This document shows, piece after piece, positions 12,620-57,948 of a DNA stretch of 64,000 bases (its first letter is position 1; each line of letters opens with the position of its first letter). Source of the DNA: Amphiscolops sp. MND2022 (taxonomy: Eukaryota); NCBI GenBank assembly GCA_964187785.1, contig OZ076409.1:16804001-16868000 (forward strand). Direction: 5' to 3'. The translations under genes were made by a program, and so were the position numbers. A model generated the notes under the pieces. That model searched no databases and was not told the DNA's origin. It worked only from the letters and a program-made list of their open reading frames with translations.

Positions 12620-12727
12620 TAACACCGCCTGCCTTGATTTCGCAGGGAAGAAATTAACAAGAGCGTTGAACACGCAAGCGCATTAAAACAAGGCACAGTA
12701 AAAGAAATATAAGGTTAGGGAACAAAG

Positions 12728-15700
12728 TCATTTGAAATCATCATTGAAATTAGCATCAAACATTTTCTTCAATTTATGCACCGGTCGATTGTAGATTCCT
12801 GTAGCGGTTTTTATTTTTACGACTCTCACAAACTTGTCTGGGCCGGTGTACACATGTTGGATTTTAGCCAATGGCCACTGTAGTGGGGGAATATTGTCAT
12901 CAATTACAAAAACAATATCACCAACTTTCAAATTAGAAATTTCTAGTATCCTTTTATTTCTTTCTTGCAGGGAGAGTACATATTCTTTGACCCATCTTTT
13001 CCAAAAATGAGAGACCATTTTCTGTATTTGTATCCATCTTTTTGAGGGTGAATGTGTACTTTCAGGGTTTTTCAAATTATCATTAGTTTGGCTCAAAGGT
13101 AGATTCTCCAACTTTCCACCCAAGCAGAAATGAGCAGGAGTTAAGAAAAACTCGTCATTTGGATCTTCTGATAATGGGCAGATTGGTCTTGAATTCAAAA
13201 TCTTTTCAATTTGACAAAGCAGAGTACATAGTTCTTCAAAGGACAGAACTTTGTTTCCCATAACTTTTCGGAGATGTATCTTTGCACACTTGATTGCTGA
13301 TTCCCATAGGGCACCAAAGTGAGGAGCTCTTGGAGGGATGAAGAACCACTTGATGTGCAAGCCTGCTGCTTCAGCCTGCAAGGAGTCACAGTGTTCATTC
13401 CTTGATATCTTTTGCAGGTCTGCTATTTTTTTCTCCGAACCAACAAAATTTTTCCCATTGTCACCATAAAGATTTTTAGGGTAACCTCTGCGAGAAACGA
13501 ATCTTCTAATGGCTGCAATACATGCTGCTGTACTAAGATCGGCGACTAGTTCCAGGTGAACTGCTTTACTGGCAAAGCACACAAAAAGTGCTAGGTAGGA
13601 TTTCTCAAGAGAATCCGGAGATTTCCTACAAAGGAAAGGACCAGCAAAGTCTAGGCCCACGTCCTCAAAGGCTTTTATAGGAGGGTCAACTCTTGTCTTT
13701 GGAAGATCTCCCATCAGAAACTGGCTTCGAGTTGAAGCGATTACAACTGACACAATTCATTATCATTTTTCGAACCAAATTTCTACAACTGGGAATCCAG
13801 AAACGAGTTTTAATGTGAGCAATTGTTTGACTAGTCCCACCATGGAGTGTCAGCTGGTGAGAATTCAATACAATTAGACGTGCGAGGTGACTGTCTTGAG
13901 GAATTAGTCTTTGAAACTTGCTTTCTTCGGGCAACTTTGCATGTACTAATCTTCCTCCGACACAAAGAATGCCATTATCGAGAAACGGGTATAATTTGCA
14001 GATTTGACTCTTGGGCTTAACTTGTTGTGCAATTTCTAGAGTTCGGATTTCTTCCGAATATCGTTTCATTTGTTCTTGGCGAATCAAATTTATGATTGAC
14101 TCTGTTAACTCCGGGGCAGTAATGTAGCTTGGTAAAACAACCACGTTCTTCTTCAGTTTGTCAATAAAACGTCTAGCGTAAGCAAGAATTCGGAGGACTT
14201 TGTATAAGGAGTTAAACCTCGACAAATCAATAACATCCTTTTTGGTATCCCTGTGAGCCACAGAGGTTTGAAGACTGGTAATTCCTGTTGTTAGAGTCAA
14301 CTTTTTCAACTCTTCAGATGTTTCAACAATTGACAATGTTTTCGGAAATTCCCCTGTTAGTAACCACTTTGGACCATTCCACCATAGGTCATGTTGGTTC
14401 ATTTCGTCAGGGTTAATTCCTCGAGATGCAGGATCCGCAGGATTCTCCTCGAAACACACATGATTCCAATTCAATTTGTTTTCACTTTGAATTTCACTAA
14501 TTCTGTTTGAAACAAAAGTTGACCAGCAAGATGGTTCTTTTGACAACCATCACAGAACTATTGTTGAATCAGTCCACGCGAAGGTTTCTTCAATAACAAC
14601 TGGCGTTTGACCAATAGACTTGATGACAGATTGATATAACCTAGTGCCTAGCAAAACAGCACATAATTCTAATCTCGGAACAGATTGTGTTTTCACGGGG
14701 TCTACCTTGGTTTTGGCAACAAGCAGGGATGACTTCCGCCTGCCATGAGAATCTGTGGCAACAATATAAATACAAGCGGCATAAGCCCTTTCTGATGCAT
14801 CACAGAAGAGATGCAACTCAAATTTGTCCGAGAATCCATCAAGTAATACGAATCGTTGCAATTCCACATCCTTTAGAGAAATCAATTTCGTTCTCCACTT
14901 CAAATATTGGTCGGCAAGTTCGGAAGGGAGGTGATCATCCCATGAAATTTTTGCTTCCCAAGCCCTTTGCATTAACTGTTTCATGAAAATGGTAACTGGT
15001 GACAACCAACCCAATGTGTCGAAAGTCTTTGAAATGTCACTGAGCACTTGTCTTTGGTCAAAACCTTTGCTTTAAAGTTTTCCTTTTCGATGTGGGAAAC
15101 CTTAAAAACGAAGCGATCTTCGCTGTGTTGCCAAACAATACCGAGCGTTTTTATTGTATGGTCTTTGTCTAAAAACTCCAAGTTATCATTTGCTTCGCGA
15201 TACTCGGGCGGAAGGTCTAAGATAATGCTGGATTCGTTCGAAGTCCACTTGCGGAGATCGAATCTTCCTCGTTTAAGAGTTTCTACTAATTGCTTTTGGA
15301 GTATTCGAGCTTCGTCGATCGAATTGGCTCCAGTGAGAATGTCATCAACATAAAAATCTCTCAGTATAGCTGTTTGAACCTCAGTGGATACTTCCGACAA
15401 ATTGGCACATTCTCGCAAAGATCGGATTGAATGATACGATGAGGAAGCTACACCATATGTAACTCGGGTCATGCGTAAGGTTTCAACCGGACCATCAGCT
15501 GTAAATCTCCAGAGGATCCGATGAAAGTCTCGATCGGCTTTATCCAGCTCAACTTGCCGATACATCTTCGCTACATCAGCTGATAAAGCAATCTTGAAGA
15601 AACGGAATCGTACGAGAAAATTGAACAAATCATCTTGAAGTTTGGGACCAACTAGCAAACAATCATTAAGTGAAAAACCAGTTGTCGTTTTAGCACTAGC

Positions 15701-18001
15701 GTCAAATACAACACGCAATTTGGTGGTTGTACTGTCTTCTTTCAGCACGCAATGATGAGACAAGTAGAAGTTTGGAGAATTATCAATCTCCCTGGATTGG
15801 ACCTTCTCCAAGTGTCCAAGGTCAATGAATTCTTGAATGAAAGCTGAATACTTCCGAGAAAGGTCGACATTATGGCGCAAAGTGTATTCGAGACGAATGA
15901 AACGCTTCATTGCGTTCGCTTTCGAAAGTCCTAAATTGTGGGGTCCATCTTTAAATGGCATCTGTACTACGAAACGGCCGTCTTCATTGCGTTTTGTGGT
16001 GCTATGGAAGTGCTCTTCACAACGACGCTCATCCAAAGTTAAGTGTCTAGTTTCGGGGACACTTTCTATTTCCCAAATATTCAAAAGGAGTTGGTCAGAG
16101 TCACAATTCGGAGTGGTAGTCATGTGGGACACAACGTTGTTGCTGCCAGACGAATACACAGTACCAGACACAACCCAACCGAATACGGAATCCCGAATGC
16201 ACAAGCCGTTGTCCTTTATTTTATTATCAAGCATGTCTTCTATAACATCTGCACCTAGCAAGAGATCAACCTTATTAGGACCGTTAAAAGTGGGATCAGC
16301 TAAGTTAAGATTGTTCACATGGCGCATGGTCGAAACGTCAATTTCTTTATCAGGAATGGTATTGGAGATTTTTGGTATGAGATGAAGATTAACTTCGAGG
16401 GTATCATTCAACTTCACAGGCAATAAGCCTCGAGTTTTTTGGAAATGGGAAGAACCCATTGTAGAAACATTTATTTGGCTGCGCTGAGTTGGCAGCATGA
16501 GCGCCTTTGCAACATCTTCTGTTACGAAACTGGCTTGTGAACCGGAATCTAAGAGAGCCTGCAGCTTGATCGCGTCTCCCGATGAATTCCGAATTGTTAC
16601 AAGAGATGTAAAAAGAAGAACAGTATTTATTTCATTGTCAGCACTGAAGTGCCCTGTGGTGAATTGTTTTGTAGACTCCATTTTGTTGGAAGTTGAATTC
16701 ATACTTGAATAAATCTTTGTAGAGGTGCGTTGATCAGGGAGCTGTTTCTGAGGTCGATGAAGCAAGGTGTGATGTTTCATTTTGCACTCACGACAAGTGA
16801 ACTTAGATGGGCACGCATTAGACGAGTGTCCTGATTGGAAGCAGTTGAAACAGAGTTTTTTGTCTTTTATGAACTTATGTCTATCAGCAAGACACATTCC
16901 TTTGAATTGTGAACAAGCGTAAAGGCGATGATCCTCCTGGCAAGATTCGCACGATGAGCCTTGAACAGCATAATTCTGAACTCTTTTGGTCAGAGTATGA
17001 TTCCCTTGGTTACAGGGAGGAGTCACACTTGGTTGCGGTGTGACCTTTGTGCCACCCGATTCGAGTGCACGGCTTCTTGTGTCAAGGAATTTTGACAATA
17101 ATTCCCAAGACAAAACGTCAGTGCCAGGATTATCCAGCTGCCACTGCTTACGTGACTCTGGATCCATCTTGTCCGTCAGAACAAAAACTAAGATTGCATT
17201 CCAGTGCTCTATTGGTTGACCAAGTTCAACGAGTGCTCGTAACTGCTCATTGGTGAGCTCCAGAAGTTTTCTCAATCCAAGAGCGGATTCAGTTTTCAAA
17301 ACCGGCTGCGACCAAATTGCTTGCAAATGAGCTTGAATGATGCTCCTTTTATTTTCATATCGATCTTTCAACAATGCAAAGGCAATATTGTAGTTTGCGT
17401 CAGTTATCGAGATTGAACTAATGAGTCTCGCTGCTTCACCCTTCACACAGGCTTTCAAATAGTTCAGCTTCTCTGAATTGGAGAGATGGGTATTAGAATC
17501 GACGGAGGCCTTGAATAGGTCAAAGAAACTCATCCAGTCAGTGTGTGATCCAGTGAATGTTGGTAACTGAAGTTTAGGCAACTTCAATCTACTCGATGTG
17601 ACAGAACTTGATGGTGAAGAGTCTGTTGAAAACTCACACGGAGGTCTATCGCATTCTTTTTTGTAATTCTCAATCAATGCAGACAACCTAGCGATGGTAA
17701 CACTAGCAGAAACATGGAACTCCGTTTGCTGTTCCAGTTCATTGGCTAAATCATCTTCATCATCTATCAATAATTCAATTTCCGCATCAAACTTATGAAT
17801 CATTGCAATTCTATCTTGTAATGTCTTCAGCAAAGCTTCACCTTGAAACAATTTAGTTGAAGAGTCAATAGCAGTGACTGTAAATTCATCAACTTTCTGT
17901 TCCAATCTAGTGAAAGCACCTTTGTGACCACCTCGGATGCGAGTAAGTTTTCTATCTTCAGTGGCTGGTTGTACGGAAGCACTACTTTCAGTTACAGACA
18001 T
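12728..18001 (-). pseudogene. BEL/Pao gag-pol polyprotein, disrupted by 2 frameshifts and 1 stop
   Basis: 14981-18001: gag LKLPKLQLPTF, zinc knuckles CFNC..GH..C..C..C...HH, protease LLDSGSQ, RT FYVDD. 14550-15047: RNase H FCDASERAY. Stop at ~14550. 13686-14546: HGG/C..C zinc-binding region. 12728-13753: integrase DFAGP/GDNG/WESAIK and Pao C-terminus. Confidence 0.93.
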
Positions 18002-18145
18002 TTTTCAGATTACAATACAACACTATCACGAACAATAAACAAAGTAAATAATCCTCAAAGTCAAGTCGGATAGGCCACCGATGAGCTTATCGTCCAGTGA
18101 CCACATCGAACTCACCTCACAGGATGAAATAAAAAACTTCTAACG

Positions 18146-19139: not shown

Positions 19140-19422
19140 TGTGTCTCACCGATAGCCCTACTTTTCTAATGGCGAACCAGGCCGCTCCATCAGCCAAAAA
19201 ATGATTTAAAAAGGAAAAATTATTATTTCCGGAAGATTTGTGTCTAGCAATTAAAACACACAGGATGCGGGAAAACAAAAAACACATGTGAAAGTATTTA
19301 CAAACTGCCGAGGGTTATATTCATCCAAGATACATGTATGCTTTACAATTTTGAACTAGAATTTGAAGTCAATTATTTGAAGGAATGATTCATCGATTTC
19401 AAATAGAATTCCATTCAGAACA
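19140..19422 (-). repeat. BEL/Pao 5' LTR
   Basis: Direct repeat of 12337-12619. Confidence 0.95.
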
Positions 19423-19789
19423 TGGGGTGAAATAATATGGGGTGAAATGAACTTGGGGTGAAATGATACGAAATAATTTGAACAATTTTGGAAAAAGTGC
19501 CTAACTGAAAAATTGTTGGGGAAATTATCTAAAATGACCCAAATAGTCAAAATTTCACAAAAGCAGTGTTGATTAAGTTTCTTTGGAACGTATTTTAATA
19601 TATTTCTTGGATATAAAGTATTTATCGACGTAAACACCGAGATATATAAAATGATTTTTTTCGAAGATCAACGCCAGTGATTTTCGTGAGAAACCTTCAG
19701 TATTGTTATATATATCTTCGACATAGTTGCGAACAGTTTGGCCACAAATATCGAAAGTGAACGCCTATTTATTGGCAGGGTCGTCAAAC

Positions 19790-22720: not shown

Positions 22721-23344
22721 AACAAGACGGGAACGTCTAAAGTCGGCGCTATATCTAAGGCTCAAGAAGCTCAGTTTTCTAAATATGCCCAGGATGTATT
22801 CATGAAAAGCTTTGAAAACACTTTCGAGACACCCAAAGTGTGCCTTTCATGCTCGATATGACTGGAAAATCACTTTTCTCGACTGGAAACAAAAAAATTT
22901 TTGAAAATTTTTTTGAAAATTTTTTTTGAAAAAAATTTTTGAAAAAAACTTCGAAAACGTCGCATAGTGCCGAAAAATGAAAAGGGGGGACCCTTTGGGA
23001 TTCATTAACATATTTTCTGTTGCAAAATATCAAAAAATCCGAAGGGGGGACTCTTTTGAAAAATTGAAAATTTTCGAAAAAAAATTCGCACAGTGCCGAA
23101 AAAAATTGAAAGGGGGGACCCTTTGGAGTCTTCCGGTTTTGTAGGTTACGTAAAAAAGGTAAAAAACGAAAGGGGGGACCCTTTGCAGTAAGTTTGCATT
23201 GGTGGAACTTGGCCTGAGTGAACTTATCAGTTTCTGTAAAAAGTGGTACATACGCGATGAGCTCTGTGGTCTGACGAAAAAAAAAAAACTAGCCACTGTA
23301 ATAGTCGGGCTTTTTTCCTTAAAGGAAAATGCGCCGACTAAAAA
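22721..23344 (-). mobile_element. DINE-1/HINE-like element, copy 2
   Basis: AACAAGACGGGAACGTCTAAAGTCGGCGC ... GCGCCGACTAAAAA; same termini as copy 1 in reverse orientation. Confidence 0.65.
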
Positions 23345-24071
23345 TGAGCCTATAGTTTAGAAAAATTTTGCGCACAAAACTACGGTCCCTGGTCGTGACA
23401 TCATTTTGGAACACTCTAAGAATGATTTTATTGTGAGAACAGTAAAAATCATTTTTAGTAATCGCAGTGCTGGTACTTCTGCGAACGCATGTTTGGCTAA
23501 ATTGGAGTAGTTTCCCCTCCAAAAAATTCAAGGATCTCCGCAAATACACATGCTACGAACCTGCCTAGTTTTTAAATTCTGTCGAAGAACGTCTATCTTT
23601 TGAACATGAATCAAAGTTTGAGCATGAAAAAAATAGAAAAACCGATGAGAGATAAATTTTCTTTCCCGTACAGACTATGGTCGTAAATTATACTTTTCAG
23701 GTAGAGAAGGCAAAAATTTTCGAAAGTATTGTTCGAGTACTTTAGAGAAAACTCGTCTCTTTCTTGCATCAAACACATTTCATGACTACTCCATATTTTC
23801 GCCCCACATTGCTTCTCACAGACGTGAAACGTCAATCAACCGGCATTTGAAATACGATATATCAAAATACCTTTATTCCGAACGTGTTTTAACCTTACGA
23901 GTTGACAGATCAAACACAACTCGGCATTATCAGCTCACTTTTTGAACTAAATAGAACTAAAAAATTGATACCCGAAAAAAGTTGACAATCACAAATATTT
24001 TTCAGTTCATCTAAAACTATAAAATAAAAACACAAAAAAATTTTACCAAAACAAAAATGGAAAATAACGAA

Positions 24072-24378
24072 TTAATTTTTAATTGTATATATCAAGTTAG
24101 AATGTTTCAAAGGCACATGACCCAAAACACTTTGGAACCACATTAAACAAATAGATTGCTGCTGCTGTTTCAAATTATCAGTATTTCTTCTGGAATCTCC
24201 GTTGATTTCATTTTCATCTTCTTCATCCACACTAATCTCACTCCGAAGGGCAATAGGTGGGTTTAGAGTCACATAAGAGACAAACATGTTGAAATAGATT
24301 GAGAAGCATTCAGGGGACTTCTGAAGATGAGAAACAACTGTGTCGTTGAAAAATTTCCGCATCAAGAAGTAGTAGTAC
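24072..24378 (-). CDS. EXT1: EXT1-like exon 9 (terminal, GT64 C-terminus)
   Basis: Acceptor TTTTAG; YYYFLM...ECFSIYFNMFVSYVTLNPPI...QSICLMWFQSVLGHVPLKHS, then TAA. Confidence 0.8.
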
Positions 24379-27300
24379 CTAAAAGCGAACAGTCAGGCTA
24401 ATAAATAGTCAACATTGAGATGAATAATTTAACTAACAAGGTAATTGATTTGTTCTTGTATATTTTCTTAAATATTGTAAGTTTTGTATATTTTCTCATA
24501 TGTTTGGTATATTGGAATGCGGGTGAAAAATTGGGTTAATTCAAAATTAATTTCACTGGCAAAAATATCGTGAGAACGACTCTATAGTCAGGCGTGGAAG
24601 GAATGCTTTCGACACTCGGATTCACTAATGGTAAGTTGCGAGGATCTCTCGAAGTAAAAAAAGCAGGAACACTAGCTTCTCTTTTCAGACAATGGAATTT
24701 CCTTCGATAACTCTGAGCAAGTTTATTTTCGAAGATGACACACATCTTGCTAACCCTGATTAAGATACTCATCACATCGACGTCAATGGACAGAAAACCA
24801 TTAGCATTTCGGAGCAAAAAGGGTCTTGAAGGAACTGATGTTTCTGCAAATTGAATTATGTCTGTGACGTAATAGAACGTAAATTGATCATTGAACATAT
24901 TGATTCAACTTCAATGTCAACTGAAATATTCCTCCTTATTTCAGGTAACAGTTGCGGGTTTTATGTATTTTCCACTTTAGCTCTTGACTGTGTCCTTGTA
25001 TGCCGCGTCTGTGTACGAAAAGAGTGTAAGAAACGAACTGAACCCTTATTTCGAAGAAATAATTCGGACTGCATGTAAACAAAGGTACATATTCCATGGG
25101 GATTTCTTTCATTCTCTATTTTACTCATAAATTTAAGGGATTGGAAAGACAAATTGAATTTTTAGGATAATGGGTACAATCGTCTTAATTTGCAGATTCT
25201 CCTGATACTAATTTTATCAGTAAAAAGTCTAAAACCGCAAAAACAATCCCGAAAGATAGCTTCGTCTCTCGAATTAAGATAGTAAATGAAATGAAGTAAT
25301 AGAAAACCCCTTATTAAAAACTATATATACCAATGATCTTGATGTAAAATAGTGCAGGAAATTTAAAAGTATCTGCTAAAGAAACAAAAGTTACAAATAA
25401 GGAGCCAAATATTATCATTTTTCACAAATAAAAGTTCAGTTAATTTCACACAATTGTATGAGTGTGTCGGTTTGTGAGTTTCTAATATTGTCTTGAGAAA
25501 AGCAAAAAATGTTGTTTAGGTTCCTTTCCTTGCCGAGAATCAATCGAATCAAGATAAACACATGAAGAAGCACACGATCAAGAAACAGACGTCAAATTTC
25601 TTGACCAATCATTAAATAAAAACTAAAACGTTTTTCTATGGCTGATTATGAAATGTCTTTTACTTAGCAAGCCTTGTTACAAATTATTCCTTGTAACAAA
25701 TTTGATATTTTTAACATGAAATGTCCATTGGAAACAATTTATTCCTTTTGATCTCCACGGTACCGAAAAAACTCAAAAGGTTTTTCTCATTTCTCTCAAC
25801 TACCAATCAAAATGAACTCACCAACTCTTGTATATGACGAGTCATTTGACTTACCTGTGAAATACAGGTTTCGATCATGACGTTTACATAGATACAGTCC
25901 ATGGCCGTATGGCCATCAAATTATTAAAAACCATTTCAAGGAGCAATAGGACTTCTACATTCTCATAATAGGCGGCATTGACGTCAATTTTCATGACTTC
26001 AAAAATTCAAACCCGAAAAAATCTTTGCAATTATCAATTGCCTTCAATCTTTCAATGCCTACAGATTTTTGATGTTTTATAGGAGTATATTAGATTCCTT
26101 CAAGGATATTTTTTTAGTCAATAACGTTCAAGTTGTTTTTTTTCTAATTCCGCTTTTCTTAGTGATGACTTTCTGCAAAACAGATGAAAATCTATGCAAC
26201 GTTTTGAAAACTCAGTATTTTCAACAATGTAAAGTTGTCTGCATAATTTCGACGAACATTTTTCGGAGTAAGCTTGTAGCAAACTTTGAAAGTTTGGAAT
26301 CAGACAGCAATCACCATAGTTCCATGAGAAATGATACAGTTTTACGTTCTAAGGTTTAGATGCTGTTTTCAACACTTCGCCGTCTTTTTGCAATGAACCA
26401 GAGTTTCCTAATTCTTGCTTTCTTTCTAGATACAGTGATATCACTCCGTCATACTTATCGTCAAAAAGTAGTTCGTTTTCTCCTGAAATATCAATTCAAT
26501 ATATCAATACATCAATTGAACAAAGGTTGAAGAATCGGTAGCAAATGTGGCGTTTGTGCCCGATTTGTGTCATCGAATCAATCATCCTGTGAGTTGCTCT
26601 GACCAGAAAGTCCTCCAGTTGTAACTTTAGCATCGTACTGTACCATAATATGATCGAATAAAGCTTCCAATCTTAAAAATGTTCTTGTTTGTTTGTAGAA
26701 GCAGAATGAAGAAACTGATCCCCTCGTGGAAAAAATTCAAAGGAGTAGCAGTTAGTAGAATACCGACGTTTTGTTTAGTAAAAGTTACATATACCAGCTT
26801 GAATGGGTCAGTTTTGCTCAATATTGCGGAATAACGTCGATTCAGAAGCAGCTCAGGTCTTCATCAATTTAACAGTCAAAACCTTTATTGCAACAATTGA
26901 ACTGACTAGATTTTATTCCTTGTTTCTTTTGCCCTTCAAGTGAAAGATGACTAGAATGTTAAAATTTATCCGGTACTCTTCAGCACTTAATTTTTTAAAT
27001 AGTATTATCCTCAATCGTGTTTTTTCATTGCTTAATGTCATTTTTCATGTGTCCGTTTTTAGTCACAGCAACAAAGTTTGAACTTGTGATGATTTTCCCA
27101 GCCGTGTAAAAACCAACGAAGAGAATACCGATATTTTGAAGCAAAAGCTTCCATAGCTGTATATTCGCATGATGCAAACAAACTCCGCCTTTTACAAGTG
27201 ATAGGAGGGTCTTGATAGCTTGAAAAGAGTACAAGAGGTTGCTGCTGCATGTGCAAAAGAGAGCCCTCAAAAATTCTTCACACTAACGTGTCCCATGGTG

Positions 27301-30300
27301 GGACAACTTGGCGTTCGGCCAGTCTTTGAAGCTATGAACGAAATGAATGTTTAAGGGAACAAAAACGTGCATGAAGCAGTTGTACAAAGTTTCATGGCAT
27401 TGTTTGTTTGCATGTGGGAAAGGGTGTCTTCTGTTGTATTGGACAACATTGAGAAGTCTGAAGGAAGGCCATTGTGGCAGGTATTATGGTGGTATTACGC
27501 CAATTCGGTGGAGATAGGAAATTCAAACAAGTCAAGGAGATTAGCCTCATATCCATTGTTTAGTTTGAGTCAAAGATTTCGAAACGTCGGAGTCTTTTCA
27601 GAGTCGAGTTGTTCTCAAAATGTGCCAACTTTCTTTTTATTTCCCAAGGCAATAGGCCTAGTCAGAGACAGACCATGCTTTCAGTCTTTATAAAGATGCT
27701 GTCAAGATACATTACAGCTCTTGCGCAGCAACAAAGTTCACATGCCATACCAGAACGAATAAATGGTCAGAGCTATTGCCGCTATCCTGTTTATTCAAAA
27801 AGCTCAGAGTATCAAATAGAAGAAGTGGACGTCAACCACTCCGAAGACTTTCCATGCGCTGTCACTATGCCAACTTGCTAGAGAGAAGATCAGGTATAAC
27901 AACGCGATGAGTGTCACAGACGAACTGAAAGCTGACTAATGGACCAATGGTTATACCGAAGTCAGAGACACCAGAACGTTACACCAATGAATCCCATCAT
28001 TTGTGTACCCACAGAATCTCAAAACAACCTTTTAATCTGCGACAAGTACATCTCTGCTCGATATATAGCGATTTATGCTGCACGAGCAGAAAATTTTATT
28101 CAATGCTGCCAAACAAGAAAAAGCAAGTTGACGTAGGGGAAATACAGAGTAGCAAATAGCCAGCGTCCAACATCGTTTACAACACGAACAAGAAAATCGG
28201 AGAAAAAGTGCTGCCAAGCCAAACATCTGCATTCCTGAGTGTTCGATCTGCATTTTGTGAAATCATCCTTCAGCCGTGTCTCTATCAACACGAATGAAAT
28301 TGAATGCAGTCCCGGTCTTGAACTATCTACGCATAGCAGAAATTAGTATCCAACAACCAACGGCACACACGTCGAATGTGATAAACATTCGCAACAAACA
28401 TACTCTTTGGCGACAGTTCACGAAAACTCAAAAAACAACAATAAAACTACAACTCGAAAGTGATGTTTTTGTCTGCAATATTCCAGCCTACAGTGCGAGA
28501 ACACCTGAACAAACTATGGGATAGCTCCAAGAAAGCTGGATTATGGATAAAAACTCCAACGAAATAAAACTGAATATCATTCGGAATACCTCCTTGAGCA
28601 GGCCCAGTTTCTGCCAGGTTCAACGAGAATGTTGTCTTCAATTGAAAGCTCAGCCAATGACAAGCCACGAATTTTTCTTCAACAACATCCAATGAACATT
28701 GCAAAAAGATTGCTTGCGTCTGGAAAGGTTGAAAATTGCCCCAATGAAAAATTCATTGGCACGCGACTACATCAGCCGCGGTTTGGTAATGCCCTGAAGA
28801 ATGCTATCAAAAAATTTCCATGTATCTTTCTGCTGCTATATCATTCAATCCTAATAATTTTGTTTCAGGAAAACCGGGAACTGGCAACTCTACAGTCACT
28901 TTTGTTGCCCTAACTCAATGTGCAAGGGTCTTAATTGCATGGATACACCATTAGCTGGCGAAAATGTCGCAGTTTGGTGGACTGCATCTGCACCGCCTCA
29001 TTTCACTCTCCATGAACGGAAATTTGTTACTGATGAAGCAGGTTGATCGACAATCCAAATACTCTATTGTGAACAATGAGAATGACCCTCTTGAAAAGGT
29101 TGGATGCTTTGCTTATCGAACAAATTAGTATGCTCAATTCAGAGCAATGGTGCGCAATGGATAATACGCTCAGGCTCATCAACATTTGCAACCTTCCAAT
29201 CGGAGGAATTTTAGTGATCGGCAACTGAGATTCCAAACAGCTGCGGCCACCAGCAGGACCCCTCCTGGGAATTTTCGCTGTACTTTTTATTATTTTCCGC
29301 CCCAAAATGGGGGAGGAAAATCATGTGTTGCCTTTTTTCCCAAATTCTGCCAAAATTTTAAAATCTCTGGTGCTTATAAAGGGAGCTACCGTTTGGGTCA
29401 TAGCTCGGAGGCATAAACGGAGCCGCCGAACTTGCGGTCATAGTTATAAACGAAGAAAAATGCGTTTTACTAAGGAGGAAGCAAAAATTCAAAAATATTG
29501 CGCTACTTCCGATCTTTTGACGTTACATCCGAACTATATTGCATTTTACTAGGGAGGAAGCGTAGGTTCAAAAATATTGCGCTATATCGGAATTTTGACG
29601 TCATATCCGAAGTAAATTGCGATTTTTCAATGATGCAAATTTTCGATTAAGCGTCTATTGTTAGTCATACGAAGGCGGAAAATATCCCGGTGCTTAACGG
29701 GCGTCTTGTTACCTTTAAGCTGTTTCTACTTTAGAGAATACGTTCGAATGGTGGATCCTCTGGGGACCAGGATATTATCTTTGTTGGACAGTATCCAATT
29801 TGCTCAAAGAGAGACCAATGAAATTGTATATAACTTAGAACAAAACTGTCAGTTCATGGAGATTTGGGATCAAATAAACGAGGCAGTTCTCAAGGTTGTG
29901 CCAATTACGTGGGCCGAAACAAGGCTTGTGCAAAAACATCATCACTACATTCAATGTTCGAATCGGAAATTGGTCATACAAAAATCAGTCGATGAAACCT
30001 CGAGGCGAGGTCAGAATCTGTGGTTAGCCACTCAGGATGTCGAAAGTGTTACATATTTGAACAAGATTTGGTTAGAATCAGATTGCCTGCTGATTTATGA
30101 AGGTTCCCCAATGAGAATAACTAGCAATATTCTGAAGTTACATGCCACCCAAGTTCAACTTTGTGTCGTTAAAAAAGTTACCAAGCCAAACAACCATTAT
30201 CGAAATGCACCAAGCCCCACCATGCGTGCGCACGTTCCCTCCTCTGGGCAGATAGAAATCGCAGTTATCCTTTGTTTGAATGGAGAAATGTTATAGTAAA

Positions 30301-33300
30301 GAAAATCGAACGCCTTCCTCATAATTTCCGGCAAACTTCTTCATTCCGTCGGATAGTTTCCTTGAAGCCTTTCCAAGCTGGGACAATTAAAGTTTATAGC
30401 AGATGATGTGACTCTTTTAGCAACTCAAATTACTACAAATGAACCGTCGGAACGATCAATGTTCAAACCTTGAAGAAAAACCGCTTTTTGGTTCTGATTT
30501 GATGAGTAAAAGAATTGAAGCTTTCAACCTTCGTCGGCTCCAAATCAGCCAGCTTGAAAACAATTGACGCCATTTATTTTAACATTAGCAAGTGGGACTA
30601 CACTATCCAAAATTTAGTGGAATCGCTAGCAAATCAGAACTCTCAATCCCTCTCTCGCCGTAACAAATTCCCTATCTCGCAATAAGTATACGCCATGACA
30701 TGACAAACACTTCGTGAAGACAGTTGTGCCAGTTTACTGTTTGATGTCCCTGAAAGATCAGACTATCAGTATTGGTCGATGTGGCAGTATTAGAAAAAAC
30801 TTGAACAAGCTAATTCTTAGCGTGCTCACAGTCCACAATCAACTATAACGAAAAAAGCTTGGACTCTCCTTTGTGCTGCATTCGAGATAAGTGTTTCTAC
30901 TCCAGATAATTCTACGATCGCTTTGGTGAGTAACAGGTTGAATGCAGTTCACACTTTGCAAAGAAATACCACAAACGACAGTTTGGTTGTCTGAAGAAAG
31001 TTTAAACGATAAGTCCCAGGAAAAAATAATTGGAGAGGAAGTGAAGAAAAATGATCATGACAGTAATATTTCTCGGTAGTCCTAAATACGCTTGTAGCCA
31101 AGCCTAGTTTTCAGATCCTGGTATTCTAAAATTAAATTTTGACACCCTTCATTATCATTTCTGAAGGGAACTATCAGTTTGAAAATTGTAACAGGCGTAC
31201 AATGGCTAAGTTTGGATTAGTAGAAATGATCCCCAAATCTCGGGTTTTTTTTCAATCATCTTCCGTTTTCTGTCAACATTTACTGCCAGATGACCGAACT
31301 TTCATATTTTCAAATTTAGTTTCAATTGTAGCTTTAAACAGGCCAGAAAGGAAAAAGCTAATATTCAAAGCATCCGCTTAAAAAGTGTCATGTTCATTTG
31401 CCGTACGTTGAAACTTTCAGAAGTGACTATCAAAGTGGAGGTTGCAACAAAACTGCAACCTCTTCTTTATGAAAGCTCCAATTTCGTTTTGTTTTCTGAA
31501 CTCATCAATCTATTCAAATCACCGGTCACTCGTTTAATTAGGTTATCAAGCTTATTGCTTTCGCAAAAGCGTAATTTTCTAGCACTGTTCAACTGTCTAT
31601 TCTTTGTTGTTCCACATTTAAGTATGTCATCCGTGACAACTGATACGCTATATGCTCTTGAAGAAACGCACAACAAATCAAAGTTCAAAAAATTGCCTAC
31701 ATTCTGCTAATTTCTTCCTCTTTCGACCATTTTTTGAAAAGAAAGTTAATATGGCAATTTCACTCAGGTATGTCTCATAGATGAGTTGGTAAGAACATCA
31801 ACGGGTTCAGCTATGTCCACCCTCATTCAAACTCACTGCTCCTATTTCTAACAATTTCAGCCATTTGTTTCCCGCTTTTCCCATATCAAACATTTCCCGA
31901 TATTCTTTCAAAAAGTGAAAACTTGAACGCAAGATGTCGTTCATCAACATCTCGCTGCCAGTTGGAGCCGCCAGAGCAATCGCTGACGAACGGTATGCTG
32001 AACGGTCACGGTGCGATGTCAGCGAAAAAACCTTGAGAAGGATTGAAATGTAATCCACCTCTCTATATTACAAAAGGTGAGCATTTTTATTTCCTAAAAC
32101 TGATTACTCCTAATGAAGAAAACCCAGAATGTTTCGTGTAGGTCCTAAGAAGCAACAAGATCTTCTCCGGTTTTACTCCTACTAAACAACCAAAGCAAAA
32201 AAAGCTCAAAAACTGCAACCTTCAATGTTTTATCCCGTTGGGGCTCGACCGTGACCAAGAGTGCGTGGCGCTCTTCAAGGACAACATCGATCAAACGTAA
32301 GTTCTGTTACAGCCCTGATTGGATGCTTCGGGCAATCAATTAGGGTTTCTATTGAATAACTAACAATCGGATTTCAAATCTATACATTAGATCACTACAT
32401 TCTCCCACATCGAGCATTTCCATCAGAATACGATAAATTTTTGCTAATTTAATTTGTTACAGCTATGCTCTTTTGGTGGAATAATTTCGTGGTGGAATTG
32501 GGTCTTAAATTACTATATGTAATTGATGACATTTCCGGTCGTCTGGCTCTAGAGAACCCGCTTGTTGGGCACTATCAGCTGCTGGCTCCGTGTCATCAAG
32601 TACAGAGTATAGTTTCAGACCAGATTGTACACGGAAAAATATTTATCAATTGAAGCCAGACCATCACTCTTTCCAAACTTTGTCTAACTAAAACGAAGCA
32701 AGGAGTATTTAAGAAGGGTTTAGATTCGCATTCAAAAATACTGACACTTAGTAGCTATTTTTCAAATAGTAGAAATCACTTCTGAATTCAACAATTATTT
32801 TTGACAATGTTACAAGTGCTGATAGGAGTAAGTGCTGGAAAATTCTCCAAAAAACACATTCAGCAGCATTCAGTTTCTTAAAAACTAAAACTCTTTGAAA
32901 TCGGTTTATGGTACGATGTAGCTTTCGTAACATTGGCATTTTTCTTTTATAGAAGAGATGTCTGGCTCAGTGATAGATATGAAACGGTTTGAAACAAGCA
33001 GTTTTGTTTCCCCAAAGTAGTTGAGTACTGGGCACTTACATCTTCGTCATACAATTAAATTGAAAAGTATGGTTAGGTTATGAAGCCGAAGCAACTCTAG
33101 CTCAAAGGCTACGTTAAATGTGCAATTCTAGTGAAAACAGCTAACATGAGTGCTTACGAGGTGGTTACCGATTTCAAACTGAATCAAACGAATAGTGAAG
33201 GAACCAAAAAGACGAAATGAGGAACGCCAGTTGAAGTCGTGTCTTGTTCGAAAAACTTTTTTTTCATGTCATTTTAATTTTATATTGCTGACCATTTTTA

Positions 33301-36300
33301 ACTAGGTGCAATTACAAAAAACCTCTGTATTGCACTTTAGTTTAGTTTTTCTTTTTCATCGATACTTTAGACATTGAAGTACTTTTTTGGTTCCAATTGA
33401 AACTGAGTACCTAATGAAGGTGACTACAGTGATGGTTTCCATCGTTTTGAGCGACTTCAAAACGAGAATTGGAAAAGTTCAAGATTAGCATTTACCAAGT
33501 TTGATGGACAATAACGAAGATTGCAACAACGGTAAGAGCGATCACAAGAACGACGATGACAACAACGATAACAACATTTTCTGTTTGATTCTGTTTTAGT
33601 TTATGTATGCTTGTCTGTATGTGACTGTGAATGCTTTTGTTTGTTGGTCAACTCTGTGGGCATGTGCATGTAATGTATGCTTTTTGGTTGATCTGCTGTT
33701 TCTCCTTTGTGGTTACTTCGCTGTTTGTTGTCCAGTATCTTTTTTTACTACTTTCCGCCCTTCAAACAAAACCCCTGAACAATCAATTTATTTTTTTTAC
33801 ATTCAATTCATCATTGAGTGATGTCATCTTTTTCTATCGTCTTAGTTTTCATACTTTAATTTTATATATTACAAGTAATTGCTTTGTCATTCAAAATTGA
33901 CAGTTACCGAAGATTATGTACCAAGCAACGCCCGATCGACTGTAGCCTTGCGGTACCAACGCTTTCGTCGACGCGCACAATGCCTCAATATCGCCTCCCC
34001 CATTCTCGCCATGTTTTTTTTTTCATTGTACCTATAAAATTATTGGTGCTCTGTCCCAACTCATTGGGTTTGATTAAATTTCTGTCTCATGAAATGTTTC
34101 ATACAGCCATTCAGCTGCATTAAACTTTCTTCTTCATTCAGTACTAACTTGTGATGCAGGGACAAGTTCAGGTCAACTACACTGTAATTTGAAGTAGTGT
34201 CTGAGGATATGCTGTAGACATCTGCATTGTTTGAAGACGCCTGCTTAACATGAGTCAGGATCCCATAGCCGATTATTCGATCCGGGAAATGATGAGTCAT
34301 TGATAGCACGTCCCTGGCCTACAAAGAGAGAGCACAATTACAGGAATATTTATATTAAGGATGCAATCTAAACTTTGAAATTTCGGAAGTATTTTTCAGA
34401 ATCTTTCTCTAAATATTTACAACAGAATATTCATCAACTTAAACTTTTATTGCTCTTAATTGAAAACCCTCCTCTTTTTGGAGCCGATAGCGAGTAAACT
34501 TTAAAGGACATGAAAGTTTTCGAAGATGTAGAACGTTTTTCGTGAAACTTGAACAGGGTTGGTCAATATAAAACATGGGCGTTTTAAAACAGTTTTAAAA
34601 CACTGTTTTATTTTGAATAAAATACAGTCCGATCAAATGTTTTTTTATTTCTTCATTTCACGAACATGTAATCGCTGTAGACAGACAAGTAGGCGTCAAA
34701 ATGAGTTATTTTATAAAATGACAAGTAAAAATGAAAACCTATCCTGAAAAATTAGTGAAATTGGCACTCGAAATGGCATGCCTAGTCCATCCATTCTGAT
34801 CTTCGCAACAGGCTTGGAGTTCAGAAAGTTGAAAAACCTAGTTTTGTGATTCGATATTTGAATGATATTGAATAAATTCATTCTTTCAAGCTTGTTTTTC
34901 TATCTTTGTTCGAGAGAATTTTAAACATTTCTTTAAAATAATTTAAAACTTAGAATGGCCAACCCTGAACTTGAATGATTCTTCTTAAGAGAAAATCAGA
35001 AATACCTGTTTGCCTAAATTTGAGGAGTAGGATGAACAGTCGACTCTCAAGATGAAAGAGCCAGAGATTTCAAAAACAGTATCCAGGTATAGAAGAGACA
35101 AAACTGTGTTTTCTTTGATGACCAATCCGTCGTCCAATAAAATATTCCCTCGGCGATCCAGACCCAAAGACACGAAAACAACCTGAAACGAAATTTACGT
35201 TCAGTGCTAATCACGTGCAGAAGTCACGAAAACTTCAATTTAGCCCAAAGCCACTGATTACTTGAGCCTCACTTCCACCGCTCCTTTCTACAAAAATTCT
35301 TCGAAAACAGAAAATATTTTTTTAAAATGCAGCACTTTAGTTGAGCGCGGTAGTACAAAATTTTGTAGGGTGATGTCATTTTTAGTCCGCGCTTTTTCGT
35401 AGAAAAACGCAGACTATAGTAGTGACTTTTTTTCTTTTTTTCTAAGACCAACGAAGTGACAGATTTTATAAGCTTTATAAGCAGACTTGAACTAACACTA
35501 AATGCCACACTACTTCTACTGGCACTTGAGATAGAGGTTAATTAGGCTTTTTTGAGGTCCCCTTTTATATTTTTCGGCACTATGCGACTTACCGGGGACC
35601 AAAAAAAATTTGAAAATTTCGAATTTTTTCGATTTTTTCCTCATGCGGGTACTGTAGAAGAGAATACTTGACACTTTGAAGTCCTTTTGCTATTTTGAGC
35701 CTTAGATATGGCGCCGACCTGGGGCGTGGGTTCGAGTCCCGCCCATGACCAAAAATTTTTTGTGCAGGTTTTTTCGGCTTTGTGAGACTTTTTTTCGCAA
35801 ATTTTTTAAATGTCTCCAAAGGCCCCCTTCATTTTTTTCCTATTTTGCAAAACAATGGATGTTCAAAAACTCCAAAGGCCCCCCTTTTACATTTTTCGGC
35901 ACTATGCGACTTACTGGAGACCAAAAAAATCGAAAAAAAATCAAAAAAAAACCAAAATAAATTGGAATTGTTTTTCAATTTTTTCCTCAAGCGGGTACTG
36001 TAGAAGAGAATACTTGACACATTGAAGTCCTTTTGCTATTTTTGAGCCTTGGATATGGCGCCGACTTGGGCCGTTCCCGGCTTGTTTTCATTTCATGAGA
36101 TTTCATTGAACTTTTTATTACCTAAAGTGCGTCATGGTTGAACCAACGAGAATTGTTCTATTCCGACTTTTCCCGATGAGATGCGATTTTCTGGTTATGT
36201 AGCATTGACTTTCAACTGATTCGATCAATAAACGGATCGTTATTTGAATACTTTTCGGAAGCATAAACCAGTGATGTACAGCAATTCCGAAAAAAAATTT

Positions 36301-39300
36301 TACCCTGTCAATCAAATATGGGTAGAAAAATTATTTAAAAAGTAATTGAATCAGAGATTTGACTCGCTAATTTTTTTTCGCTAATCGCTAACTAACGCTA
36401 ATTATATATCGCTAATCGCTAACTTCGCTAATTGACAGTCGCTAGCGCTAATTAAAATCCATAATGAAAAGTTTAATTCTCATATTTAATAATGAACAAT
36501 TTGGTCATTGTAAAAAGTTGCATAATTCATCTGAAAAAGAATTCATTGATGTTTACTGGGTAAAAATATGTTTAAAATATAGTAAAGTACTTATATATGA
36601 TGATATATAACAGTTCTTGGGATGAATCAGTATAAATAGAGACAAATTATAATAAATGTAATGTTTGATGCAAAATAAAGCGTTGTTTTAGAGAAATGAC
36701 CAATAGGAAAACGCCATCGCTAAGCGGTCGCTAAATAATATGTATTACGCTAACTAATTTCCGCTAATATAATCCTTCGCTAACGCTGAAGCGGCGTTAT
36801 TAGCGTCAAGTCTCTGATTTGTACCTATGCTACAATTAAAATTGCAATTACAATAAAATTGGAGCTGGAAAATCAAATAAATAATTGCAAGAAGGCCAGC
36901 CATCAATCGATTGTGCCAATTAATTGCAATTAATTTTCAAACAATCAATTTTTCGGAAATGCTGGTGCTTTTTTATATAAGCTTGATAATCCTACCTTCA
37001 AGTTCCGTGGCATCATCAAATACACGTTCTTGCACATTTCCAAGGTATCCGCTTGACCACGAACGATGACGACAGTAACCATGTCCTTTGTTTTCAGCCC
37101 CACATTCAAAGCTGTCGAAGGTTCGTGAAGCCAGAATGGAAAATCCCAGGGATTGGTTGAAAAGTCAAAATCAACAAACAAAGCCCCTGGGTACGTATTC
37201 CAAACCCATTTTGGCAAGGGTTCTGGGTTGATTCTGTCATATAGAATCTGTTTAAATGCAAAAAAAATCGTCATTATTTCTGGCATTGTTTCTGGCAACA
37301 AGTAAATTTGAACATCGAACCATTTACCTTCAACGAAGTGCGCAAGATATGATCTAGCGAAGAAAAGTATGTCCGGTAGACAAAAGAAGCCTGAACTTTC
37401 ATGGAGTTCACCACTTCAACCGGTATATTCCTCAGAATGGATGAAATCTAAACACAAGGTCACAAAACATTCATGGTTGACTGAGGTGAGAAAACGGCCG
37501 TCATACTAAATTTCACCAGAGACAAGTTACAGTGGTGGCGAAAATTATTATCATCATAGCAAATTTTGCAACTGATTTCCACAATTTTACAGTAAAATCT
37601 TGGTCTAGGTGGAAAAAGCAACAGTATAGAATGAGATTTTGGGATAGGAGATTTGCAATTGGATAACTTCAGCTGGGAGAATTTTCAATTGACGAACTTC
37701 ATAGGGTTTATTTATTCACATTTGCGGAAGGTTCACAAATTCCAAGCTCAACTGGGGCATTTAGTTTGGCATTGTGGCTCGTAAGCTTTCATGAGAAGAG
37801 CGCAAAAAAATCAATTGACGAGCAGGTTACTTCAAAACGTGGAACAATCACTCAAGAAAAAAGAATTAACAATCATATGGGACATTAAATGACTGGTCAT
37901 AAATTTTCACAGCTCAACATGAATGAAGCTAACCCAAGTGACTCGTAATTCGTCGATAACGATGGCCATTTTTGACCAATCCAACACTTCGGCGAAAGGA
38001 AGAGCGAAACCGTTGGAGAGGATGACAGGAATGCAACCCGACCGCATCACTTCCCGCAGTCGAAACGAATCTAGTCGTCTGCCTCGAGGCACGAAACAGA
38101 ATGTCGAGTTCTGAAGCAGCATCTCGTAATTGTGCCTAAAACCGAATTATCCGAGGCACTAAAAACTGGTTAACACGATACACTCGACTCCGTTTATAAC
38201 GATATTCCGGTTATAGCGATAGTTTCACGGTCCCGGTCACGATGCTAGTATATAACGATTTTCGCCAATAACAATATTCGGATATAACGATTAAAAAACG
38301 CCGGTCCTCGGGAAATCGTTATAAGCGGAGTTGAGTGTACAATGATACATGTACCACAGTAAATTCATTCTTAAGATTGCTCTTCATCCTTCTGAAATAT
38401 TTGCAAATAACCTGACTGGACCTAATCACTAATTTTACAGGTTACTGTGCTAAAAGTGAAAAATGCGCCAGAAGATTTGTTTTCTCTAATCGCAAAACCA
38501 CTAACTAATATTGAAATTGCTAAAATTCACTGAAATTTGTTTACTCAGATTACCAAGTAGGTTTCCCGATGTAATGGAAAATGTTTTTAGTTTTCCGACG
38601 AGAAAAGTTAGCATTTCTATTACGCATCTTAGCGAGGTTGTAGGAGAAATAATTAAATAGTGGAAAAGCGTTATGAATTTTTCGATATGGGTTTTTCTGG
38701 TTATTGCTAATCCAAGTCGCCGAATTGATCATGTTGTGCCATAAATAACTGATCAGCCGTGCCAAAACCCTCATCTACTGACTCTGGTCTGTGGTATTCC
38801 CGGATACTCGATTCGCACTGCTGCAATTCCAGTATTCCCAGTTGTTTCTTCCACTCATCCTTGTTGTGTTCACACGTCACCAAAGAGATGATGTCACGCG
38901 AATTTGACAGCGAAGGCAGCAAGTCCCGAGTCTCAGACCCGATTCCATGCGTATAACGCTTACCCTAATAAACACACCTAATACAGAAGGAGGGGTACAG
39001 GTCACGGGAACTCACCCTCGGGGTATCAAAACCTTCTTTGTTCTACTATGTTTTAGCATAGACAATTCAACACTTTATGGTGCTTATTTCTTTTCCCTTG
39101 TGTTTAGGTTTTGAATTGTCACTACTTTTGATGTAACTAATCTTGGAACTTGTTTAAAAGATTTTTGATGATGACATTGATTGTCGAAAACGTTCAATAA
39201 AGTATCCTTGATTGATACTTTTCATCTACAGTTAATACTGTTGGTGAGAACACTGAAGAAAAAAATTAAAATGGAAACGTGATCATTTAACAATTCAGCA

Positions 39301-48515: not shown

Positions 48516-57948
<9,433 letters not shown>

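What the first reader, a model, noticed from the sequence alone, without database searches (positions are those of the whole stretch)
26900..30950. Hidden Helitron-like Rep-PIF1 fossil with a candidate C-terminal GIY-YIG nuclease
Seen across frameshifts, in collinear order: HUH Rep motifs (FFTLTC; EIQ..G..PHIHCLV), PIF1 motifs (GKPGTGNS, IEQISM, GGILVIGN*DSKQL, EYVR..DP, IYEGSPMRITSN), then VYCLMSLKDQTISIGRCGSIRKNLN..KAW. The last segment resembles the GIY-YIG pattern VYxL..YIG....RL..HN...PW. Known: Helentrons typically fuse an apurinic-type endonuclease after the helicase. Inference: this is a rolling-circle transposon lineage with a different nuclease module. The ORF track largely misses it, and the GIY-YIG call is the weakest part because key Tyr/Arg positions are mutated.
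Basis: partly seen in the sequence, partly recalled or inferred. Interest (0 to 1): 0.72.

Follow-up and report, generated by a model that had tools for sequence, protein, structure and literature searches.

The report
Decayed Helitron-like transposon, disarmed nuclease tail
This is a broken piece of a rolling-circle jumping gene from a barely described third branch of Helitron-like elements whose enzyme normally ends in an SLX1-type DNA-cutting domain; in this piece's own lineage that cutter has lost its active site yet the elements kept copying, which gives a natural test of what the extra nuclease is for.

Summary
Confirmed. Window 27205-~31000 (+) is a dead internal fragment (12 stops, 25 frameshifts) 70% identical to residues 994-2317 of an intact 2,337-aa protein: Y2-HUH Rep, PIF1 helicase and a C-terminal SLX1-type GIY-YIG domain in one frame. 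The fusion defines a large family: 92 of 93 near-complete proteins and 42 of 42 metagenome loci carry it, and 76 of 93 keep all five catalytic residues. In Rep and PIF1 trees the family forms its own clade beside HLE1 and HLE2. The scan had already noted this family in four other genomes. New here: (1) the mutated Tyr/Arg/His are not fossil decay. All 10 intact relatives in the fossil's clade lack them, yet the domain still models as SLX1, and such copies are 99.3-99.8% identical across three contigs. A nuclease-intact subfamily appears to share that assembly. (2) A separate RPA-like OB-fold gene lies downstream in 17 of 22 loci. In print I found only one moss HLE2 family with a captured GIY-YIG, and a third 'Paramecium' clade whose relation to this one is untested. 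No element ends were found. The fossil lies antisense between exons of an EXT-like gene and holds a HINE-like insertion.

The parts
27205..31002 (+). Decayed internal fragment of the element's single large ORF (= P0003 residues 994-2317); N-terminal ~990 aa, last ~20 codons and both element ends absent
   Evidence: Frameshift-aware alignment, 70% identity over 1,098 codons; 12 stops and 25 frameshifts against P0004; no hit of the N-terminal part in the window beyond one E 0.036 match with one of four queries
27274..27291 (+). HUH Rep motif I (FFTLTC)
   Evidence: F-T-x-T conserved across family alignment A1
27518..27565 (+). HUH Rep motif II with H-I-H at 27548-27556; family form ExQ-xxx-G-N-L-P-H-x-H, here with stops at 27515 and 27542
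   Evidence: both His invariant in 92 of 92 proteins
28062..28076 (+). Rep motif III, two catalytic tyrosines (Y-I-A-K-Y in intact relatives; K decayed to I here)
   Evidence: both Tyr in 91 of 92 proteins
28506..28507 (+). Site of a 130-codon deletion in the Rep-helicase spacer (a second, 30-codon deletion at about 28631)
28865..30514 (+). PIF1 (SF1B) helicase domain; Walker A 28865-28891 (Lys decayed to Asn), Walker B 29106-29132, motif VI 30485-30514 broken by two stops
   Evidence: PIF1 E 2e-8 in intact P0003
29295..29713 (+). Foreign ~420-nt insertion between T and T, HINE/DINE-1-like: 5' hairpin, inverted repeat (29291-29301 / 29674-29684), 79-bp tandem repeat (29451-29626), 3' hairpin (29686-29701)
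   Evidence: Absent from P0001/P0003/P0004; structure; criteria from PMC4067079. Single copy in the window
30732..30940 (+). SLX1-type GIY-YIG-like domain, catalytically dead. Tyr1 kept (30735); Tyr2 is Ser (30768); Arg site at the frameshift (~30799; Glu in intact relatives); His is Ala (30809); Glu decayed to Val (30926; Glu in closest relatives)
   Evidence: hhalign dead vs active profiles 98.9%, E 1.9e-17; model of dead clade alone matches SLX1/HIGLE
34064..34318 (-). Host context: exon-bearing frame of an EXT-like glycosyltransferase gene (Glyco_transf_64 positions 101-148) on one side of the fossil
   Evidence: E 0.0013; acceptor-like site
24075..24392 (-). Host context: next exon-bearing frame of the EXT-like gene (Glyco_transf_64 positions 144-238); the fossil lies antisense between the two
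   Evidence: E 1.4e-7; intron assignment is inferred and small exons in between are not excluded

Best explanation
SHOWN: the window holds a long-dead, end-less fragment of a Helitron-like element. Intact forms encode one 2,300-3,100-aa protein: optional OTU protease, Cys-rich N-terminus, Y2-HUH Rep, spacer, PIF1 helicase and SLX1-type GIY-YIG domain. A separate RPA-like gene usually lies nearby. The family is a clade distinct from HLE1 and HLE2. In the fossil's own clade the GIY-YIG fold is kept but its active site is gone, while Rep and helicase motifs are intact and near-identical copies sit on several contigs. INFERRED (by analogy with Helraiser; established knowledge): Rep nicks the element's ends and joins the strand to a target, PIF1 peels the donor strand, and the RPA-like protein protects the single strand. 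INFERRED (my best guess): the SLX1-type domain engages branched DNA, such as the displaced flap or the target junction, and in most of the family nicks it to open or tidy the insertion site. It is an accessory. In this host's clade it survives as a non-cutting branch-binding or structural module, and the cut comes from Rep itself, from a host flap nuclease, or from the co-resident nuclease-intact subfamily.
For: (collinear homology to intact ORFs). (fusion in 92 of 93 proteins, 42 of 42 loci). (five catalytic residues invariant in 31 of 31 metagenome domains; best PDB match SLX1, E 2.8e-15). (PMC8287910: those five residues are each essential in yeast SLX1). (10 of 10 clade proteins, and 18 of 18 further clade members with a tail, keep at most 2 of 5). 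(fold kept). (dead clade plus window is one branch, support 1.0; sister P0014 is intact). (P0209/P0210/P0212 are 99.3-99.8% identical on three contigs). (P0192/P0249, 92.6% identical, both lack the Arg and end before the Glu: a second loss). (separate clade). (RPA-like partner).
Against: No element ends, target sites or empty sites were found: hairpin+CTRR ends occurred in 3 of 32 loci against 2.7 expected, so transposition is inferred from copy pattern only. Two of the near-identical pairs lie on the same two contigs and may be alleles. That copies share an assembly rests only on equal contig lengths. The dead domain evolves faster than active ones (identity 0.39 vs 0.58 at matched PIF1 identity), which also fits slow loss of function. 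The AU test does not reject a sister relation to HLE2 (p 0.21). The dead clade has E-E instead of D-E in Walker B, so helicase activity is unproven. No biochemical test was done.
Confidence: 0.7

Rival explanations
1. The GIY-like tail in this clade is a functionless relic on its way out; the elements transpose like ordinary RepHel Helitrons.
For: Relaxed conservation relative to PIF1 (0.39 vs 0.58); P0192/P0249 lose the end of the domain; P0011 ends before any GIY tail; HLE1 and Helitron2 need no extra nuclease (PMC11417382).
Against: The frame stays open through the domain in all 10 clade proteins, down to 53% identity. 12 of 74 positions are invariant and mean identity is 0.46, against 0.29-0.30 in the linker and tail. 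The clade-only model keeps the SLX1 fold.
Confidence: 0.3
2. This is simply an HLE2 (Helentron/Helitron2) subfamily that swapped its AP endonuclease for a captured GIY-YIG, like HelenSM92 of Sphagnum.
For: Arg three residues before motif II, a Helentron mark (87 of 92; PMC4067079); N-terminal OTU in some members; AU test does not reject grouping with HLE2 (p 0.21); HELIANO reports a GIY-YIG in one HLE2 family.
Against: 0 of 92 have the R-G-(S/L)-P-H-x-H motif. No DUF6570 or Exo_endo_phos hit in 36 family proteins scanned, whereas the HLE2 references have them. HLE2 is its own branch (100/98) and groups with HLE1 (93/89) in the Rep tree; PIF1 separates the family at SH-aLRT 99.
Confidence: 0.12
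3. The family is an integrated rolling-circle plasmid or virus-like replicon rather than a transposon.
For: A dedicated ssDNA-binding gene travels with it; no transposon ends found; other neighbour ORFs are unannotated.
Against: No relative in IMG/VR viral contigs or GTDB genomes. Dispersed chromosomal copies and a fossil inside a host gene. The one conserved neighbour that was folded is OB-fold, not a capsid. RPA genes are typical Helitron cargo (PMC11417382).
Confidence: 0.06
4. The nuclease-dead clade is a domesticated host gene family.
For: Intact ORFs conserved down to 53% identity; loss of catalysis is common in domestication (general knowledge).
Against: Several subfamilies with many dispersed, partly truncated copies; Rep catalytic motifs intact; a neutrally decayed copy in the window.
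Confidence: 0.05

Closest known systems
Helentrons / HLE2 (PMC4067079, PMC11417382; passages read)
   Same: Y2-HUH Rep + PIF1 with an extra endonuclease fused at the C-terminus; OTU in some; separate RPA-like gene; Arg before motif II.
   Different: The nuclease is SLX1-type GIY-YIG, not AP endonuclease. No DUF6570. Motif II is ExQ-xxx-G-N-L-P-HxH (two residues longer, no R-G). The protein is 2,300-3,100 aa. The RPA-like gene is mostly downstream. Separate clade in both trees.
Canonical Helitrons / HLE1 (Helraiser, PDB 7LCC)
   Same: Same three Rep motifs in order and a PIF1 domain; RPA gene downstream of RepHel (PMC11417382).
   Different: The family's Rep profile reaches Helraiser only at E 0.03; fused nuclease; ~1,000-aa N-terminal extension; no excess of hairpin+CTRR ends.
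HelenSM92 of Sphagnum magellanicum (PMC11417382, one sentence and the Fig. S8 legend read; figure not seen)
   Same: A Helitron-like element carrying a GIY-YIG domain.
   Different: Described as a capture in one HLE2 family. Whether the domain is in the same ORF, SLX1-type, or homologous to this family could not be checked.
'HLE Paramecium' third clade (PMC13085455; passages, section 18 part 1, supplement text)
   Same: Very long transposase (3,052-3,592 aa), outside HLE1 and HLE2.
Cellular SLX1 / At-HIGLE nucleases (PDB 7cq2, 6seh, 7wme)
   Same: Fold and, in most family members, all five catalytic residues.
   Different: Fused to a transposase and without the RING finger; active site lost in the fossil's clade.
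Tetrahymena Tlr8p (PMC1564403, passage read)
   Same: Mobile-element protein with SF1 helicase followed by a C-terminal GIY-YIG.
   Different: I-TevI-like GIY-YIG; no HUH Rep described.

Membership tests
Helitron-like elements (any) | Y2 HUH Rep (motifs I, II, III with two Tyr) | tested here: met
   H-x-H in 92 of 92 and Y..Y in 91 of 92 proteins; motifs present in the window
Helitron-like elements (any) | PIF1 helicase fused downstream of Rep | tested here: met
Helitron-like elements (any) | Dispersed multicopy insertion without target-site duplication | tested here: inconclusive
   Many copies on different contigs; no flanking DNA for them, so ends and target sites were not seen
HLE1 (canonical Helitron) | Motif II R-G-L-P-H-x-H and placement in the HLE1 clade | tested here: not met
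   0 of 92; HLE1 references form their own branch, 95/93
HLE1 (canonical Helitron) | 5'-TC and 3' hairpin + CTRR ends | tested here: inconclusive
   3 of 32 loci vs 2.7 expected within 1.5 kb of the stop; ends may lie further out, beyond the RPA-like gene; window copy has no ends
HLE2 (Helentron/Helitron2) | F/Y-x-R before motif II | tested here: met
   Arg in 87 of 92, W/F two before it in 78 of 92
HLE2 (Helentron/Helitron2) | R-G-S-P-H-x-H motif, DUF6570, placement in the HLE2 clade | tested here: not met
   0 of 92; no DUF6570 hit in 36 proteins; HLE2 references branch apart, 100/98. A sister relation is not excluded
Helentron | C-terminal AP endonuclease | tested here: not met
   No Exo_endo_phos hit in 36 proteins; GIY-YIG occupies that place
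HLE2 (Helentron/Helitron2) | Asymmetric subterminal inverted repeats, T|T insertion | not testable with these tools
   No genome held; no complete element delimited
HLE Paramecium clade | Placement in that clade | not testable with these tools
   Sequences not obtainable here; only text of PMC13085455 seen
SLX1-type GIY-YIG domain (fold) | Sequence and structural match to SLX1 | tested here: met
   Active profile E 2.8e-15; dead-clade model Foldseek E 3.5e-4; VIA Z 9.6, rmsd 3.2, 104 aligned
SLX1-type GIY-YIG nuclease (activity) | Catalytic Tyr, Tyr, Arg, His, Glu | tested here: not met
   Fossil's clade keeps at most 2 of 5 in 10 of 10 proteins; met in 76 of 93 family members overall
HINE / DINE-1 (the insertion at 29295-29713) | SubTIRs, 3' palindrome, central repeats, T-flanked, multicopy | tested here: inconclusive
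   Structure met, but 4 of the 11 inverted-repeat bases read as host codons, and no second copy is in the window

The most novel reading that the evidence does not exclude
A third major clade of eukaryotic rolling-circle transposons uses a built-in SLX1-type nuclease and its own RPA to insert at branched DNA such as stalled forks. In this animal-type host several subfamilies disarmed the nuclease at least twice independently, kept it as a branch-recognition module, and now borrow the cut in trans from a co-resident nuclease-intact subfamily. This would also explain why five subfamilies crowd onto one 608-kb contig.
Probability: 0.2. Interest if true: 0.82.

Novelty: new variant of a known kind. 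Interest (0 to 1): 0.6.

Why it matters
What the extra endonuclease of Helentrons does is stated to be undetermined (PMC8788227; PMC4067079 offers a target-nicking hypothesis). This family reached the same architecture with an unrelated, well-understood nuclease. It also supplies matched natural variants: nuclease-intact (P0014), active-site-dead (P0003 clade) and truncated (P0192), apparently in one host, which makes the question directly testable. The family is large (320 clusters at 50% identity with E<1e-30), includes proteins labelled Perkinsus olseni, and scores below the Pfam cut-off for Helitron_like_N in many members, so TE annotation pipelines probably miss it. The window copy itself is an inert fossil.

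Tried and rejected
No whole genome is held, so no host consensus, copy number or empty sites. No sequencing run was listed (no evidence either way). Phage collection: no match. ESM Atlas: helicase piece uninformative (0.86, unnamed); dead tail nearest GIY-YIG clusters at 0.79, a lead only. Pfam on window pieces: no GIY-YIG. The dead-clade profile finds no GIY-YIG in PDB by sequence; only the fold search does. Viral contigs and GTDB: no relatives. The idea that the conserved neighbour gene is a capsid was rejected: it is a tandem OB fold. No RPA-like gene or N-terminal part was found in the window. Degraded-looking minus-strand frames either side of the fossil have no Pfam hit. No Rfam hit at 24000-35000. 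Search for hairpin+CTRR ends: not above chance. The HLE2-motif scan of viral contigs found nothing. The AU test could not settle the sister group. Literature searches found no description of a Rep-PIF1-SLX1 clade beyond HelenSM92; subscription journals and Repbase Reports are not covered. Figures S8 of PMC11417382 and S7A of PMC13085455 are images I could not read and may bear on novelty.
Full report
OBSERVATION. Pfam on the 30 open pieces of the region gave only a weak PIF1 hit (E 0.004). The 187-aa helicase piece 29733-30293, however, found one intact protein, P0001 (1,406 aa, 71% identity, E 6e-59), whose cluster holds a 2,337-aa form, P0003. A frameshift-aware alignment matches window 27205-31002 to P0003 residues 994-2317 at 70% identity over 1,098 codons, with deletions of 130 and 30 codons and a 420-nt insertion. 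Against P0004 there are 12 stops and 25 frameshifts in 1,097 codons. The stops imply roughly 8% neutral substitution (range 4-15%), enough for about 16 of the 30 points of protein divergence. The copy sits on a long tip beside P0001/P0003/P0004 (0.34 against 0.06-0.07). The N-terminal ~990 residues and both ends are missing. No genome or reads were available.

CONTEXT. The window looks like an animal-type eukaryote: a Bel/Pao-type retroelement at 12.7-18.0 kb (DUF1759, RT, integrase, DUF5641; the Bel/Pao label is recalled) and a MYST acetyltransferase at 53-55 kb. The fossil lies antisense between two frames of an EXT-like glycosyltransferase gene that match consecutive parts of Glyco_transf_64 (34064-34318 and 24075-24392, minus), so it is probably intronic (inferred). 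The insertion at 29295-29713 sits between two Ts and has a 5' hairpin, an inverted repeat near each end, a 79-bp tandem repeat and a 3' hairpin. This is the layout described for HINE/DINE-1 (PMC4067079, passages). An 11-bp repeat arose in 3 of 5,000 random window pairs, but 4 of those 11 bases read as host codons, and no second copy is in the window.

THE FAMILY. P0003 residues 900-2337 retrieved 18 proteins: a close clade (53-99% identity) and seven distant ones (23-32%). All seven distant ones have PIF1 plus a C-terminal GIY-YIG Pfam hit; none of the seven close ones scanned has that hit. A metagenome scan gave 66 loci with one architecture: N-terminal domain, Cys-rich region, Rep, spacer, PIF1, GIY-YIG. 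All 42 of 42 loci that run at least 450 nt past PIF1 have the GIY-YIG, 38 of them in the same frame (several loci are near-identical). A Rep-only profile, blind to the tail, hit 320 clusters at E<1e-30 and 845 at E<1e-10. Of 206 proteins held, 109 had Rep and PIF1. I dropped 15 with incomplete PIF1 and 1 with no tail; 92 of the remaining 93 match the active-domain profile, and 76 of 93 keep all five catalytic residues (67 of 78 after clustering at 70% PIF1 identity). That profile shares some sequences with the intact set, but none with the fossil's clade. Its best PDB match is SLX1 (E 2.8e-15). The five residues are invariant in 31 of 31 metagenome domains, and each is essential in yeast SLX1 (PMC8287910, passages). 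Four members are labelled Perkinsus olseni. No relative was found in viral contigs or GTDB.

THE DEAD NUCLEASE. In the fossil's clade all 10 of 10 intact proteins have lost the second Tyr, the Arg and the His, as have 18 of 18 further clade members that reach the tail. Their Rep and Walker A motifs are intact, although Walker B reads E-E. Homology is secure. hhalign of dead against active profiles gives 98.9%, E 1.9e-17. The window read-through scores 23.7 bits against a best shuffle of 3.9. An AlphaFold model built from nine dead-clade tails alone (pLDDT 76) ranks SLX1/HIGLE chains in the top 11 Foldseek rows (best E 3.5e-4) and in the top three VIA rows (Z 9.6, 9.2, 9.2; rmsd about 3.1 over 101-104 residues; next Z 6.1). 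The clade plus the window is one branch (support 1.0) whose sister P0014 is intact. The domain is still constrained (identity 0.46, 12 of 74 invariant; linker 0.30, tail 0.29), but less so than in active pairs (0.39 vs 0.58 at PIF1 identity 55-65%). Dead-type copies look recent: P0209, P0210 and P0212 are 99.3-99.8% identical on three contigs. Two other near-identical pairs share the same two contigs and may be alleles. Scattered partial losses occur elsewhere (P0081, P0104, P0155, P0185).

PARTNER GENE. A conserved ~340-aa gene without Pfam hit lies downstream in 17 of 22 loci with at least 2 kb held, and in 20 of 66 loci overall. Its model (pLDDT 81) is a tandem OB fold nearest RPA (Foldseek E 3e-5, TM only 0.26; VIA Z 8.2 MCM10, 7.9 CST, 7.3 RPA70). 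RPA genes are known Helitron cargo (PMC11417382, section read). It was not found in the window.

PLACEMENT. Motif II reads R-x-E-x-Q-xxx-G-N-L-P-H-x-H; 0 of 92 have the canonical R-G-(S/L)-P-H-x-H (canonical form from PMC4067079). I fetched unannotated HLE1 and HLE2 references by that motif and checked 13 of them with Pfam: HLE2 rows carry DUF6570 and/or Exo_endo_phos except the L073 fragment, and the outgroup rows are RepSA. In the Rep tree (39 rows, 211 columns; one low-complexity row, five short actinobacterial rows and five HLE2 rows without a detected motif III left out) the family is one branch (96/92), HLE1 95/93, HLE2 100/98, and HLE1+HLE2 93/89. The PIF1 tree (26 rows, quick method) separates the family at SH-aLRT 99. 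An AU test does not reject family+HLE2 as sisters (p 0.21), so distinctness is supported and the branching order is not. Ends remain unknown (3 of 32 loci with hairpin+CTRR vs 2.7 expected).

MECHANISM. It works like a Helitron (inferred from the intact Y2 Rep and PIF1): nick, peel, join. The SLX1-type domain most likely handles a branched intermediate or the target. Its conservation in most of the family says this is useful; its repeated loss in a host where copying apparently continued says it is not needed in cis. Rivals: relic tail (0.3), HLE2 subfamily (0.12), episome (0.06), domesticated gene (0.05).

NOVELTY. Searches found one HLE2 family with a captured GIY-YIG (HelenSM92; PMC11417382 passage and legend), a third 'HLE Paramecium' clade of 3,052-3,592 aa with no GIY mention in text (PMC13085455), and Tlr8p as a helicase-GIY precedent (PMC1564403 passage). 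PMC6431247, PMC5718144, PMC10288648 and PMC8788227 (passages) describe no such clade. Two key figures were unreadable images. This scan had already reported the Rep-PIF1-SLX1 family from four other genomes; its notes returned nothing on a dead nuclease or RPA partner. Verdict: a real fossil of an apparently unnamed Helitron-like clade, a new variant of a known kind. Interest 0.6.

Noticed in passing
window 29295-29713: HINE/DINE-1-like non-autonomous element nested in the fossil, inserted at T|T; which transposase moved it is unknown.
   Followed up: partly
window 44052-44702, 36945-37415, 34064-34318, 24075-24392 (minus): Frames of an EXT-like glycosyltransferase gene; the last two match Glyco_transf_64, the first two are assigned by eye only.
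   Followed up: partly
window 12728-18004 (minus), direct repeats 12337-12620 / 19140-19423: Nearly intact Bel/Pao-type LTR retroelement (DUF1759, protease, RT, integrase, DUF5641) with 96%-identical 284-nt flanking repeats.
   Followed up: partly
window 53180-57400 (minus); 48516-51695 (minus): MYST-family acetyltransferase exons; a 1,059-aa low-complexity open frame with no Pfam hit.
   Followed up: no
window 5270-5766, 22721-23350, 35380-36090, 45595-46950, 51778-52350: A dispersed repeat family with internal inverted copies, at least five places in the window.
   Followed up: no
window 31000-32400 and 26000-26900 (minus): Degraded-looking coding frames on both sides of the fossil; no Pfam hit. 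Possibly another decayed element that the fossil interrupts.
   Followed up: partly
proteins P0001/P0002, P0207, P0217, P0247, P0248: Five nuclease-dead subfamilies are listed on a contig of the same length (607,828 nt); three share another (1,105,112 nt). Suggests clustered insertion.
   Followed up: no
L027 5781-5914 and 12731-12864; L033 7419-7595 and 16139-16312: Repeats beginning about 100 nt after the big ORF's stop. In L027 the shared sequence ends in hairpin + CTAG, a possible right end; L033's pair flanks the ORF as direct repeats.
   Followed up: partly
L032 4683-5543, L042 1387-2286: Related ORFs (35% identity) just upstream of the transposase with H-x-D..H motifs, 2OG-Fe(II)-oxygenase-like by eye; no Pfam hit.
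   Followed up: no
L126 176-6106: A 1,977-aa RepHel with a C-terminal UCH protease and W-R before an R-G-L-P-H motif; branches at the base of HLE1.
   Followed up: no
L070-L145 (GTDB genome bins): Many prokaryote genome bins contain eukaryote-type HLE1/HLE2 transposases, probably host contamination.
   Followed up: no
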